From NCBI RefSeq assembly GCF_003790525.1, contig NZ_CP033635.1: a stretch of 64,000 bases of DNA; one strand, 5' to 3'. This document shows, in pieces, positions 48,401 to 51,400 of the stretch. The DNA is from Escherichia coli (GTDB lineage: Bacteria > Pseudomonadota > Gammaproteobacteria > Enterobacterales > Enterobacteriaceae). The first letter of the stretch is position 1. Each line of letters opens with the position of its first letter. A program made the position numbers.

Positions 48401-51400
48401 CTATGGGTTGCACGCCTTTCCAGCGTTCGTTAAGGAAGGTGGAAAGTTGCTCGATAGATTGCGCGGACGTCGTGACGTTAAAACGTTGCAGCAGTCCGGC
48501 AGCCCGGCAGGCGCAGAGTTCGCCCTGGCAGGTACCCATCCCTACACGGGTACGACGGCGTAAATCCAGCAGGCTGTTAACGTTTAAATTTTCTACTGCG
48601 TACTGCACTTCACCCGCAGTTACCGCTTCGCACTCACATACCAGGCTGCGGTGCAGGCGGCCTTCGCTCAGCCAGGCTGGTGTGCGATCGCCGTGCCGGT
48701 AAACTGCGGAACCGCGCAGCGGAGCGGGCAGGGAGATCACTTTGCGCAGCGTGACTTCTGCCGGTTCCTGTGAGCCAGGCAACGGCGTGTCGGCAGTGGT
48801 ACAGGGGCGCGTGTTGCCCAGCTTGCGACACACCGCGTCAGTAGCCCATTCCGCCATCAGGCGGTAGGTCATCAGTTTGCCACCGGTGATGGTGATAAAC
48901 CCGTCCAGACCATCGCGTTCAGCATGGTCGAGCAGCACGATGCCACGGCTGACGTTACGTCCGCTCGGATCGTCATCGCTGGCAACCAGCGGGCGTACGC
49001 CAGAGTAGGCTCGCAAAATGCGCGTTTTCGCCATCACGGGGGCCAGTTTTTCCCCTTCACGCAGCAGAATATCAACTTCTTCTGCCGTCACTCGATTATC
49101 GTCAATCTCGCTGTAATCAATACGTAAAGAGGTGGTGCCAATTAGCGAAATGGTATCGCCAGGCACCAGAATATCGGCGTCGGAAGGTTTGCGGCAGCGG
49201 TTGATCACATGCTGATTAATGCGGTGATCCATGATCAGCAGCGATCCTTTCGCCGGGAACATGCGAATGCGCAGATCGGCATATTCGGCAATGTGTTGCC
49301 CCCAGATCCCGGCGGCATTAACTACGACAGGCGCATGAAGTGCCTGAATTTCGCCGGTGAGATGGTTACGTACACGAACACCGCACACCGTCGCGCCTTC
49401 ACGAATCAGCCCCGTGACTTCATGAGCAGTAAGGATAACGGCACCGTGTTCTTTGGCATCAAGCATATTTGCTGCGGTCAGACGAAATGGATCAACGGTG
49501 CCATCCGGAACTTTCACCGCGCCAATCAGTGCCGGGTTAACGGCAGGTTCGATAATGCGCGCTTGCTGCGGGTCTATAGCTTCTGCGCTGATCCCTGCTT
49601 CTTCGCAGGCGCGGATAAAAGTGGCCTGGAAGGAGAGGTCATCTTCCGGCAGGGTGATAAACAGGCCGTTGGTCGGTTCAACGCAGTGACGCGCAATGCG
49701 TTTCAGGATCTGGTTTTCACTAATACATTCGCGGGCCGATTCCGCATCGGTTACCGCATAGCGCGCACCGCTGTGTAGCAGGCCGTGGTTACGCCCGGTG
49801 GCACCGGTTGCGATGTCGTGGCGCTCTACCAAAATCACGCGCAGCCCGCGCAGGGCACAGTCGCGGGCAATCCCGGCTCCCGTTGCGCCGCCGCCAATGA
49901 TAATCACGTCACTTGATTGCGAGTCGCGAGTTTTCATTGTTATCCCTCTGAAGTTCGTTTTTACCATTTAGCCATAGTAAAAACATGAATTGTTTGATTT
50001 CGCGCATATTCGCTCATAATTCGAAAGTGAAACGTGATTTCATGCGTCATTCTGAACATTTAAACCATCGTATTTAATAATGTGTGCGGTAATTCACATT
50101 TAATTTATGAATGTTTTCTTAACATCGCGGCAACTCAAGAAACGGCAGGTTCTCCCACTGAATCAGTCTGTTAATCATAAATAAGACCACGGGCCACGGA
50201 GGCTTTCAATGTTGAGTATTTTTAAACCAGCGCCACACAAAGCGCGCTTACCTGCTGCGGAGATCGATCCGACTTATCGTCGATTGCGCTGGCAAATTTT
50301 CCTGGGGATATTCTTTGGCTATGCTGCTTACTATTTGGTTCGTAAGAACTTTGCGCTCGCTATGCCTTATCTGGTTGAGCAGGGATTCTCACGCGGTGAT
50401 TTAGGTTTTGCCCTTTCGGGGATCTCGATTGCTTATGGATTTTCGAAATTCATCATGGGTTCGGTATCGGATCGCTCGAATCCGCGCGTTTTCCTGCCCG
50501 CAGGTTTGATTCTGGCGGCGGCAGTGATGTTGTTTATGGGCTTTGTGCCGTGGGCGACGTCGAGCATTGCGGTGATGTTTGTACTGTTGTTCCTCTGCGG
50601 TTGGTTCCAGGGGATGGGATGGCCGCCGTGCGGTCGTACTATGGTGCACTGGTGGTCGCAGAAAGAACGTGGCGGCATTGTGTCAGTGTGGAACTGTGCG
50701 CACAACGTCGGTGGTGGTATTCCGCCGCTGCTGTTCCTGCTGGGGATGGCCTGGTTCAATGACTGGCACGCGGCGCTCTATATGCCCGCTTTCTGCGCCA
50801 TTCTGGTGGCACTGTTCGCCTTTGCGATGATGCGCGATACCCCGCAATCCTGTGGCCTGCCGCCGATCGAAGAGTACAAAAATGATTATCCGGACGACTA
50901 TAACGAAAAAGCGGAACAGGAGCTGACGGCGAAGCAAATCTTCATGCAGTACGTGCTGCCGAACAAACTGCTGTGGTACATCGCTATCGCCAACGTGTTC
51001 GTTTATCTGCTGCGTTACGGCATCCTCGACTGGTCACCGACTTATCTGAAAGAGGTGAAACACTTCGCGCTGGATAAATCCTCCTGGGCCTACTTCTTCT
51101 ATGAGTATGCGGGCATTCCGGGCACCCTGCTGTGCGGCTGGATGTCGGATAAAGTCTTCCGTGGCAACCGTGGGGCCACCGGTGTCTTCTTTATGACACT
51201 GGTGACCATCGCGACTATCGTTTACTGGATGAACCCGGCAGGTAACCCAACCGTCGATATGATTTGTATGATTGTTATCGGCTTCCTGATCTATGGCCCT
51301 GTGATGCTGATCGGTCTACATGCGCTGGAACTGGCACCGAAAAAAGCGGCAGGTACGGCAGCGGGTTTTACCGGGCTGTTTGGTTACCTCGGCGGTTCGG

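What the first reader, a model, noticed from the sequence alone, without database searches (positions are those of the whole stretch)
50028..50098. glpACB/glpTQ divergent control region: strong CRP site plus an unassigned 15-bp palindrome
Besides the consensus-like CRP site (50083-50098) there is a perfect TGAAA-cgtga-TTTCA palindrome at 50028-50042. It matches neither FNR (TTGAT-N4-ATCAA) nor the CRP core well. It could be a GlpR operator variant or a site for another dimeric regulator.
Basis: seen in the sequence. Interest (0 to 1): 0.25.

Follow-up and report, generated by a model that had tools for sequence, protein, structure and literature searches.

The report
Known PlaR/KdgR box overlapping CRP site
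The 15-base palindrome between the E. coli glpA and glpT genes is real but ordinary: it lies inside a catalogued weak CRP site and matches the published recognition sequence of the repressor PlaR (and its relative KdgR), which has been shown to bind this spacer.

Summary
The window is E. coli.

The palindrome is not unassigned.
1. RegulonDB, as reproduced in Table S4 of Shimada 2011, lists a second CRP site, AAACGTGATTTCATGCGTCATT. It sits at -91.5 of glpTQ and -40.5 of glpABC, which is window 50030-50051. It covers 13 of the 15 palindrome bases.
2. Shimada 2019 showed that PlaR (YiaJ, IclR family) binds the glpT/glpA spacer by gSELEX and gel shift. They also found glpA and glpT mRNA raised in plaR and kdgR mutants, and gave the PlaR box as TGAAAC-N3-GTT(T)CA. 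The palindrome matches this box at 11 of 12 positions. It is the only match at that level in the 64 kb.

Across 31 other Enterobacteriaceae the CRP-type GTGA...TGC is the widely conserved part. The palindrome arms persist only in the Escherichia, Citrobacter and Enterobacter group.

The palindrome does not fit GlpR or FNR, and its one-mismatch match to the Cra consensus is at chance level.

Most likely it is an IclR-type repressor box interleaved with CRP II at the -35 region of glpA. No experiment yet places PlaR on these exact bases. Already known; low interest.

The parts
50028..50042 (.). Palindrome TGAAAC-gtg-ATTTCA, a PlaR/KdgR-type (IclR-family) operator box. Its centre (50035) is at about -35 of the RegulonDB glpABC start and about -97 of the glpT start.
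   Evidence: It matches TGAAAC-N3-GTTTCA at 11 of 12 positions and is the only match with 2 or fewer mismatches in 64 kb. It ranks 2 of 63,978 with a matrix built from 7 boxes of other PlaR targets. The spacer is a high-affinity PlaR gSELEX and EMSA target. The EMSA probe maps to about 49903-50224.
50030..50051 (.). CRP II, a weak CRP site: AAACGTGATTTCATGCGTCATT, core CGTGA-tttcat-GCGTC at 50033-50048.
   Evidence: Listed as a RegulonDB CRP site, activator, at -91.5 of glpTQ and -40.5 of glpABC (Table S4 of PMC3105977). It scores 5.7 bits, rank 158 of 63,979. The orthologous position scores 5 bits or more in 24 of 30 aligned sequences, median 8.8. It is 50 bp from CRP I.
50080..50101 (.). CRP I, the strong CRP site (core TGTGC-ggtaat-TCACA, 50083-50098), a class II activator site for glpT at -41.5.
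   Evidence: RegulonDB entry. The CRP DNase I footprint spans -30 to -52 (PMC5352689). It scores 15.6 bits, the best in the window.
49990..50011 (.). FNR-like box TTGAT-ttcg-CGCAT (49994-50007). RegulonDB also lists it as a CRP site at -131.5 of glpTQ and -0.5 of glpABC.
   Evidence: 9.2 bits with the CRP matrix. TGTTTGAT is strongly conserved in the alignment.
49978..50047 (.). Approximate extent of the 70-bp D154A-FNR DNase I footprint. My mapping is from the paper's numbering, accurate to about 2 bp. It includes the palindrome.
   Evidence: PMC5352689: the 70-bp protected region starts 32 bp upstream of the CRP footprint and contains the box at -123 to -136.
49989..50008 (.). Best match to the GlpR operator consensus in the spacer (5 mismatches of 20). 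Further matches are at 50081-50100 (6 mismatches) and 50041-50060 (8 mismatches). None is centred on the palindrome.
49965..49974 (-). Conserved block that reads TGgCTAAAT on the minus strand, resembling an extended -10 for glpA.
   Evidence: Almost invariant in the alignment of 32 sequences (the window plus 31 others). The promoter role is my inference.
48309..49937 (-). glpA coding sequence.
50209..51567 (+). glpT coding sequence.

Best explanation
The palindrome is the recognition box of the IclR-family repressor PlaR (YiaJ), and probably also of its relative KdgR. It is interleaved with a weak, evolutionarily older CRP site, CRP II.

The two repressor half-sites are TGAAAC (50028-50033) and ATTTCA (50037-50042). 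They flank and invade the CRP half-site cGTGA (50033-50037) and its spacer, so the two proteins cannot occupy the DNA together.

The box is centred near -35 of the RegulonDB glpABC promoter, on the CRP site at -40.5 of glpABC and -91.5 of glpTQ. Bound repressor would block CRP and RNA polymerase at glpA, and would remove the upstream CRP (and FNR) contribution at glpT. This lowers both operons until the effectors release it; Shimada 2019 suggest L-ascorbate and galacturonate for PlaR.

Shown: the CRP II site is catalogued; PlaR binds the spacer; glpA and glpT mRNA rise in plaR and kdgR mutants; the motif matches. Inferred: that PlaR/KdgR bind exactly at the palindrome, and that they compete with CRP.
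For: 1. Shimada 2019 (PMC6958661). The glpT/glpA spacer is one of 10 high-affinity PlaR gSELEX targets, confirmed by gel shift. [quoted passage not shown]
2. The palindrome matches TGAAAC-N3-GTTTCA at 11 of 12 positions. The next best matches in the spacer have 4 mismatches. It is the only match with 1 or fewer mismatches in 64 kb, against 0.20 expected.
3. The boxes I recovered in the other PlaR probes carry 1-2 mismatches: yiaK TGAAATCAAGTTTCG, kduI x2, kdgT, kdgK, ygjV and tabA. A matrix built from them, without the glp site, ranks the palindrome 2 of 63,978. It scores 12.7 bits, close to the top PlaR target plaR/yiaK at 14.4 bits.
4. The K-12 sequence used in those experiments is identical to the window across 50020-50053 (RegulonDB string).
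5. The RegulonDB CRP site at 50030-50051 overlaps 13 of the 15 bp. The ortholog of CRP II is a good to strong CRP site in most Enterobacterales.
6. The box is kept with 2 or fewer mismatches in 15 of 32 aligned sequences, all in the Escherichia, Citrobacter, Enterobacter and related group.
Against: - No footprint or point mutation places PlaR or KdgR on these bases. The accessible text of the 2019 paper does not print the glp box (Fig. 4 is an image).
- The matrix score (12.7 bits) is far below the classical KdgR boxes (24-32 bits). The right flank (TGCG) lacks the A/T-rich flank of the consensus.
- Two of the ten PlaR probes (eda and fruB/setB) have no such box with 3 or fewer mismatches. I could not define a third probe (yeeO/asnU) because one primer was not found. 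So PlaR binding does not strictly require this motif.
- The most conserved columns are the CRP-type GTGA and TGC, not the arms.
- The left arm is polymorphic within E. coli: O157:H7 has TGAGAC and FCI56 has TAAAGC.
- The main text of the YiaJ ChIP-exo study does not mention the glp genes.
- The Northern effects in the mutants could be indirect, because plaR and kdgR cross-regulate each other.
Confidence: 0.7

Rival explanations
1. The element is only the weak CRP II site. The palindrome is an accident of a CRP left half-site (AAAcGTGA) next to a T-rich spacer, and PlaR binds elsewhere in the spacer or non-specifically.
For: RegulonDB lists the site. GTGA and TGC are the best conserved columns, at 0.90-1.0. 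The CRP II ortholog is conserved or stronger in species that lack the palindrome. The palindrome is perfect in only 5 of 32 sequences, and its left arm varies within E. coli.
Against: An 11-of-12 match to the PlaR/KdgR box, inside a 271-bp fragment independently shown to bind PlaR, has a chance expectation of about 8e-4. No other candidate box exists in the spacer; the next best has 4 mismatches. The C at 50033 weakens the CRP half-site (TGTGA becomes CGTGA) but is required by TGAAAC. It is kept in 19 of 29 species, whose median box mismatch count is 2.
Confidence: 0.2
2. It is a GlpR operator, or part of the tandem GlpR operator array of the control region.
For: The control region carries several GlpR operators; Reg-Seq reports 4 to 8 GlpR sites at each of the four known GlpR-regulated operons. 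In glpFK the CRP sites overlap GlpR operators. GlpR-consensus-like 20-mers flank the palindrome at 49989-50008 and 50041-60.
Against: No 20-bp frame holding the whole palindrome reaches 9 or fewer mismatches of 20. By contrast the spacer holds sites with 5, 6 and 8 mismatches. GlpR operators are even-length, with the dyad axis between base pairs, whereas this dyad lies on a base pair. The consensus was recalled from memory, and the primary footprints (Larson 1992) could not be read.
Confidence: 0.04
3. It is a second FNR site, which would explain why D154A-FNR protects 70 bp.
For: The 70-bp FNR* footprint (about 49978-50047) includes the palindrome. GTGAT resembles the FNR half-site TTGAT.
Against: In FNR and CRP sites the TGA and TCA triplets start 9 bp apart. 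In the palindrome they start 12 bp apart (direct reading of the sequence). The best FNR-type frame, GTGAT-ttca-TGCGT, matches only 5 of 10 positions. The footprint used 20 pmol of a constitutively dimeric mutant, so the extended protection may reflect binding to the CRP/FNR-family half-site of CRP II rather than to the palindrome.
Confidence: 0.04
4. It is a Cra (FruR) operator. AGTGAAACGTGATT matches RSTGAAWCSNTHHW at 13 of 14 positions.
For. The consensus, recalled from memory, does recover both known fruB operators.
Against: One-mismatch matches are at background level: 21 in the window against 12.4 expected. The ideal Cra palindrome TGAAAC-GTTTCA has its half-sites 3 bp closer together. 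The main text of the Cra ChIP-exo paper does not mention the glp genes.
Confidence: 0.02

Closest known systems
KdgR/PlaR operators of E. coli hexuronate and ascorbate genes (kduI, kdgT, kdgK, tabA/yjgK, plaR-yiaK)
   Same: They share the inverted repeat TGAAAC-N3-GTTTCA with a 15-bp core and the dyad on a base pair, and carry 1-2 mismatches. They have the same regulator family (IclR). They act as repressors near promoters. The glp spacer appears in the same gSELEX and EMSA target list.
   Different: The glp box has a GC-containing centre (CGTGA) and lacks the A/T-rich right flank. Its matrix score is about half that of the classical boxes. It regulates glycerol-3-phosphate genes rather than sugar-acid genes. 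It is superimposed on a CRP site.
RegulonDB CRP site glpTQ -91.5 / glpABC -40.5 (CRP II of the tandem CRP sites; attributed from my memory to Larson et al. 1992)
   Same: It is the same DNA: 50030-50051 covers 13 of the 15 palindrome bases. [quoted passage not shown]
   Different: The CRP dyad (50040.5) is 5.5 bp to the right of the palindrome dyad (50035). The palindrome arms are not the CRP half-sites.
glpFK control region, where tandem CRP sites overlap GlpR operators O2 and O3
   Same: It belongs to the same regulon and follows the same logic: an activator site (CRP) is overlapped by a repressor site.
   Different: In glpFK the overlapping repressor is GlpR. Here the overlapping box fits PlaR/KdgR and not GlpR.
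Cra (FruR) operators of fruB (GCTGAAWCGTTTCA)
   Same: They share the half-site TGAAAC.
   Different: The Cra half-sites abut, TGAAAC|GTTTCA. The glp palindrome has 3 extra bases between them. The match is not above chance.

Membership tests
PlaR/KdgR (IclR-family) operator box | Inverted repeat TGAAAC-N3-GTTTCA (the PlaR box as printed in Shimada 2019, which the authors describe as similar to the KdgR box) | tested here: met
   11 of 12 specified positions match. It is the only site with 2 or fewer mismatches in the window.
PlaR/KdgR (IclR-family) operator box | Lies in DNA shown to bind the regulator | tested here: met
   Taken from the literature, not from my own experiment. The glpT/glpA spacer is a high-affinity gSELEX peak and gives a positive gel shift. 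The probe maps to about 49903-50224 and contains the palindrome.
PlaR/KdgR (IclR-family) operator box | A/T-rich flanks (AT.TGAAAC...GTTTCA.TT) and a matrix score comparable to accepted boxes | tested here: inconclusive
   The left flank is AAAG and the right flank is TGCG. The score is 12.7 bits, against 14.4 for plaR/yiaK and 24-32 for the kdu and kdg boxes. The matrix rests on only 7 sites.
PlaR/KdgR (IclR-family) operator box | Target genes derepressed when the regulator is deleted | tested here: met
   Literature only. glpA and glpT mRNA rise in the plaR and kdgR deletion strains by Northern blot. An indirect effect is not excluded.
PlaR/KdgR (IclR-family) operator box | Footprint or point mutations that place the protein on this exact sequence | not testable with these tools
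   No such data appear in the accessible text. The supplements of the ChIP-exo study are not held.
CRP binding site | 22-bp site with TGTGA-N6-TCACA | tested here: inconclusive
   In the frame 50030-50051 the left half cGTGA matches 4 of 5 and the right half GCGTC matches 1 of 5. It scores 5.7 bits, in the top 0.25% of the window but the bottom 7% of known sites. Frames centred on the palindrome score below zero.
CRP binding site | Catalogued or experimentally assigned CRP site | tested here: met
   RegulonDB entry reproduced in Table S4 of PMC3105977. Shimada 2011 states that the spacer has multiple CRP sites. Kurabayashi 2017, however, saw only CRP I protected.
CRP binding site | Conserved as a CRP-type site in orthologous spacers, in helical phase with the promoter-proximal site | tested here: met
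   24 of 30 orthologous positions score 5 bits or more, median 8.8. Scores reach 14.4 bits in Raoultella and 13-18 bits at the corresponding site in distant Enterobacterales. The site is 50 bp from CRP I.
FNR binding site | TTGAT-N4-ATCAA, with half-site triplets TGA and TCA starting 9 bp apart | tested here: not met
   The palindrome triplets start 12 bp apart. The best FNR frame matches 5 of 10 positions (read directly from the sequence). The true FNR-like box is at 49994-50007.
GlpR operator | 20-bp palindrome close to WATGTTCGWT-AWCGAACATW (consensus from memory) | tested here: not met
   No frame covering the whole palindrome has 9 or fewer mismatches. Better matches lie on either side of it.
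Cra (FruR) operator | RSTGAAWCSNTHHW (consensus from memory; validated on the fruB operators) | tested here: inconclusive
   13 of 14 positions match, but such matches occur at about chance frequency: 21 observed against 12.4 expected.

The most novel reading that the evidence does not exclude
The interleaving of an IclR-type repressor box with CRP II may be a lineage-specific competitive switch, gained in the Escherichia, Citrobacter and Enterobacter branch. It would couple sensing of plant-derived sugar acids and ascorbate (PlaR/KdgR) to anaerobic glycerol-3-phosphate respiration and to GlpT-mediated fosfomycin uptake. Natural left-arm variants, such as TGAGAC in O157:H7, would then change glpT expression and fosfomycin susceptibility.
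Probability: 0.2. Interest if true: 0.35.

Novelty: already known. Interest (0 to 1): 0.12.

Why it matters
It matters little beyond bookkeeping. The glpTQ-glpACB control region is one of the most densely regulated spacers in E. coli: CRP, FNR and GlpR have reported sites here, PlaR binds the spacer, and IHF, Fis, CpxR, TorR and KdgR are reported or presumed regulators of glpT. The palindrome turns out to be explained by published work.

The useful by-product is a base-level assignment. The PlaR/KdgR box and CRP II share the same 24 bp, which predicts mutually exclusive binding at the -35 region of glpA. Because GlpT is a fosfomycin importer, variants in this box could in principle modulate drug uptake. 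This is untested.

Tried and rejected
- **Primary papers.** Larson 1992 and the Larson-lab J Bacteriol papers are not held. The GlpR operator positions therefore rest on a consensus recalled from memory.
- **Full-text sequence searches.** Searching for the site sequence found only unrelated papers.
- **CRP frames centred on the palindrome.** Rejected; the scores are negative.
- **GlpR operator.** Rejected.
- **FNR site.** Rejected on half-site spacing.
- **Cra operator.** A 13-of-14 match looked attractive, but it is at background frequency and has no support in the Cra ChIP-exo main text. That paper's supplements are not held.
- **Fis and CpxR.** Considered from memory of their consensus sequences and rejected on geometry, with no tool test. 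Fis needs G and C at positions -7 and +7 and an A/T-rich centre. CpxR needs a direct repeat, GTAAA-N5-GTAAA.
- **Trade-off across species.** I tested whether the quality of the PlaR/KdgR box trades off against CRP II strength. It does not: Spearman -0.12, p = 0.54.
- **YiaJ ChIP-exo paper.** Its main text does not mention glp, and its supplements are not held.
- **Best hit of the 7-site box matrix.** It falls at 54005, within what reads as coding sequence, and was treated as chance.
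Full report
**Observation.** The window is Escherichia coli. 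The 801 bp around the finding are 100% identical to strain SMS-3-5 and other strains. RefSeq annotates glpA on the minus strand (start codon at 49937) and glpT on the plus strand (ATG at 50209), leaving a 271-bp spacer. TGAAACGTGATTTCA sits at 50028-50042 and TGTGCGGTAATTCACA at 50083-50098, exactly as described. Inverted repeats of generic 5-5-5 geometry are common, with 88 in the window. The specific word TGAAA-N5-TTTCA occurs only once, against 0.09 expected from shuffles.

**The strong CRP site.** I built a symmetric 22-bp matrix from 106 RegulonDB CRP sites, copied from Table S4 of Shimada et al. 2011 with the glp sites excluded. The site at 50080-50101 scores 15.6 bits, the best of 63,979 positions. 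It is RegulonDB's glpTQ -41.5 / glpABC -90.5 site. Kurabayashi et al. 2017 footprinted it with CRP at -30 to -52.

**First assignment of the palindrome: CRP II.** The same RegulonDB table lists a second CRP activator site, ttcgaaagtgAAACGTGATTTCATGCGTCATTttgaacattt, at -91.5 of glpTQ and -40.5 of glpABC. It maps to window 50030-50051, with core CGTGA-tttcat-GCGTC at 50033-50048. It covers 13 of the 15 palindrome bases, and its dyad lies 5.5 bp to the right of the palindrome's.
- It is a weak site: 5.7 bits, rank 158 in the window, in the bottom 7% of known sites.
- Shimada 2011 also states that the glpTQ-glpABC spacer carries multiple CRP sites.
- Kurabayashi 2017 saw only CRP I protected by CRP. 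Their D154A-FNR protected 70 bp beginning 32 bp upstream of CRP I. By my mapping this is about 49978-50047. That span holds both the FNR-like box TTGAT-ttcg-CGCAT (49994-50007) and the palindrome.

**Comparative evidence.** I fetched 80 glpT loci from Enterobacterales genomes and aligned the glpA-glpT spacers of 31 Enterobacteriaceae with the window.
- The best conserved columns around the finding are GTGA (50034-50037, 0.90-0.94 identity) and TGC (50043-50045, 0.94-1.0). These are a CRP-type half-site and what follows it.
- The arms are less conserved: TGAAA at 0.71-0.94 and TTTCA at 0.45-0.74.
- The aligned CRP II position scores 5 bits or more in 24 of 30 sequences, median 8.8. It reaches 12-14 bits in Klebsiella oxytoca and Raoultella, which lack the palindrome.
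- In Dickeya, Pectobacterium, Brenneria, Serratia, Yersinia, Edwardsiella, Providencia, Moellerella and Limnobaculum, a CRP site lies 60 bp from the FNR-like box. It scores 11-19 bits (13 or more in all but Serratia marcescens). In Enterobacteriaceae the distance is 40 bp.
- CRP II is therefore an old, real CRP site that has become weak in Escherichia.

**Second assignment: a PlaR/KdgR box.** A literature search for other regulators of glpT led to Shimada et al. 2019 (PMC6958661).
- Purified PlaR (YiaJ, IclR family) selected the glpT/glpA spacer as one of ten high-affinity genomic SELEX targets.
- A gel shift with a glpT/glpA probe confirmed binding.
- A palindromic PlaR box, printed as ATnTGAAACnnnGTTCAnTT, was found 'for all of these targets' and is described as similar to the KdgR box.
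- glpA and glpT mRNA increased in both the plaR and kdgR deletion strains.
- A 2023 paper notes that RegulonDB lists PlaR, Fis and IHF as presumed glpT regulators.

The palindrome reads TGAAAC-gtg-ATTTCA, an 11-of-12 match to TGAAAC-N3-GTTTCA. The next best sites in the spacer have 4 mismatches. In the whole 64 kb it is the only site with 1 or fewer mismatches (0.20 expected) and the only site with 2 or fewer. The chance expectation for a 271-bp spacer is about 8e-4.

As an independent check, I fetched the other PlaR target regions from K-12. I delimited eight of the nine probes with the paper's primers; one yeeO/asnU primer was not found. I then looked for the same box.
- yiaK, kduI (two boxes), kdgT, kdgK, ygjV and tabA carry boxes with 1-2 mismatches.
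- eda and fruB/setB have no box with 3 or fewer mismatches.
- A matrix from those 7 boxes ranks the glp palindrome 2 of 63,978. It scores 12.7 bits, near the strongest PlaR target plaR/yiaK (14.4) but well below the classical KdgR boxes (24-32).
- The EMSA probe maps to about 49903-50224, so it contains the palindrome.
- The K-12 sequence is identical to the window across 50020-50053.

**Distribution of the box.** It is kept with 2 or fewer mismatches in 15 of 32 aligned sequences: Escherichia, Citrobacter, Enterobacter, Intestinirhabdus and two unnamed genera. It is absent from Klebsiella, Raoultella, Pluralibacter, Cedecea and Superficieibacter. The C at 50033 is demanded by TGAAAC but weakens the CRP half-site (TGTGA becomes CGTGA). 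It is present in 19 of 29 species. Species with a T there have no box. A simple trade-off between box quality and CRP II strength is not significant (Spearman -0.12).

Within E. coli, 38 bp around the site are identical in 2,493 of 5,419 genomes and differ by one base in 2,441. In one sampled strain that base was 50054, outside the box. Some strains vary in the left arm: O157:H7 EC4115 has TGAGAC and FCI56 has TAAAGC. The CRP core was invariant in the five strains compared.

**Rejected readings.**
- GlpR. The 20-bp consensus (from memory) finds good matches at 49989-50008 (5 mismatches), 50081-50100 (6) and 50041-50060 (8). It finds nothing with 9 or fewer mismatches that contains the whole palindrome. 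The primary footprint paper could not be read.
- FNR. The TGA and TCA triplets start 12 bp apart rather than 9.
- Cra. A 13-of-14 match to RSTGAAWCSNTHHW is at background frequency, with 21 hits against 12.4 expected. The consensus does recover the two fruB operators.

**Mechanism (inferred).** The repressor half-sites (50028-33 and 50037-42) and the CRP half-site (50033-37) are interleaved, so PlaR/KdgR and CRP should exclude each other. In RegulonDB numbering the box centre is at about -35 of glpABC and about -97 of glpTQ. Repressor binding would block the class II CRP site and the -35 region of glpA. It would also remove the upstream activator contribution at glpT. This is consistent with the derepression of both operons in the mutants. 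What is missing is a footprint or arm mutation that puts PlaR or KdgR on these bases.

**Verdict.** It is wrong that the element is unassigned. The element is already accounted for by published data, namely the RegulonDB CRP II site and the PlaR/KdgR target of Shimada 2019. Novelty: already known. Interest is low.

Noticed in passing
window 49965-49974 (minus strand) and 49994-50007: The block CATTTAGCCA is almost invariant across the aligned sequences (the window plus 31 others). It reads TGgCTAAAT on the glpA strand, resembling an extended -10. It implies a start near 49959, which would put the FNR-like box (centre 50000.5) at exactly -41.5. RegulonDB numbering instead places that box at -0.5 of glpABC (start at 50000). 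There may be two glpA promoters, one CRP-dependent and one FNR-dependent.
   Followed up: partly
alignment, columns aligned to window ~50059-50079; e.g. L005, L019, L022: Citrobacter, Enterobacter, Klebsiella, Raoultella and others share a conserved TTGTCATAaa..TGTAACA block between CRP II and CRP I. Escherichia lacks it. Its function is unknown.
   Followed up: no
loci L031, L036, L037, L047, L050, L058, L073, L078 (upstream of glpT): In distant Enterobacterales the FNR-like box and the CRP site beside it (mostly strong, 11-19 bits) are 60 bp apart. In Enterobacteriaceae they are 40 bp apart. The 20-bp difference is two helical turns and also the length of one GlpR operator.
   Followed up: partly
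window 49981-49995 and 50111-50125: There are two more perfect 5-5-5 inverted repeats in the same 271-bp spacer: AAACA-tgaat-TGTTT and ATGTT-ttctt-AACAT. That makes three in 271 bp, against 88 in 64 kb. The second overlaps the likely glpT -10 (TAACAT) and uses GlpR-like ATGTT/AACAT arms with a spacing 3 bp shorter than the GlpR consensus.
   Followed up: no
L092 (O157:H7 EC4115) and L093 (FCI56), aligned to window 50028-50033: The left arm of the box varies naturally within E. coli: TGAGAC in O157:H7 and TAAAGC in FCI56. The CRP II core was unchanged in the five strains compared. The EHEC strain used for the published footprints may carry the variant arm.
   Followed up: partly
L085 9518-9531 and 9583-9596 (K-12 fruB/setB spacer): This PlaR gSELEX target has no TGAAAC-N3-GTTTCA box with 3 or fewer mismatches. 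It does hold the two Cra operators GCTGAAWCGTTTCA, which have the same half-sites without the 3-bp gap. PlaR may recognise them.
   Followed up: no
window 50103-50124: The sequence ATTTATGAATGTTTTCTTAACA resembles a CRP site and scores 8.7 bits, higher than CRP II. It overlaps the glpT core promoter and is not in the RegulonDB list I read.
   Followed up: no
window 50050-50059: TTCTGAACAT is conserved in Escherichia, Citrobacter and Superficieibacter. It matches the right half of the GlpR consensus. Its reverse complement ATGTTCAGAA resembles the TorR box CTGTTCATAT (from memory). TorR is reported to repress glpT.
   Followed up: no
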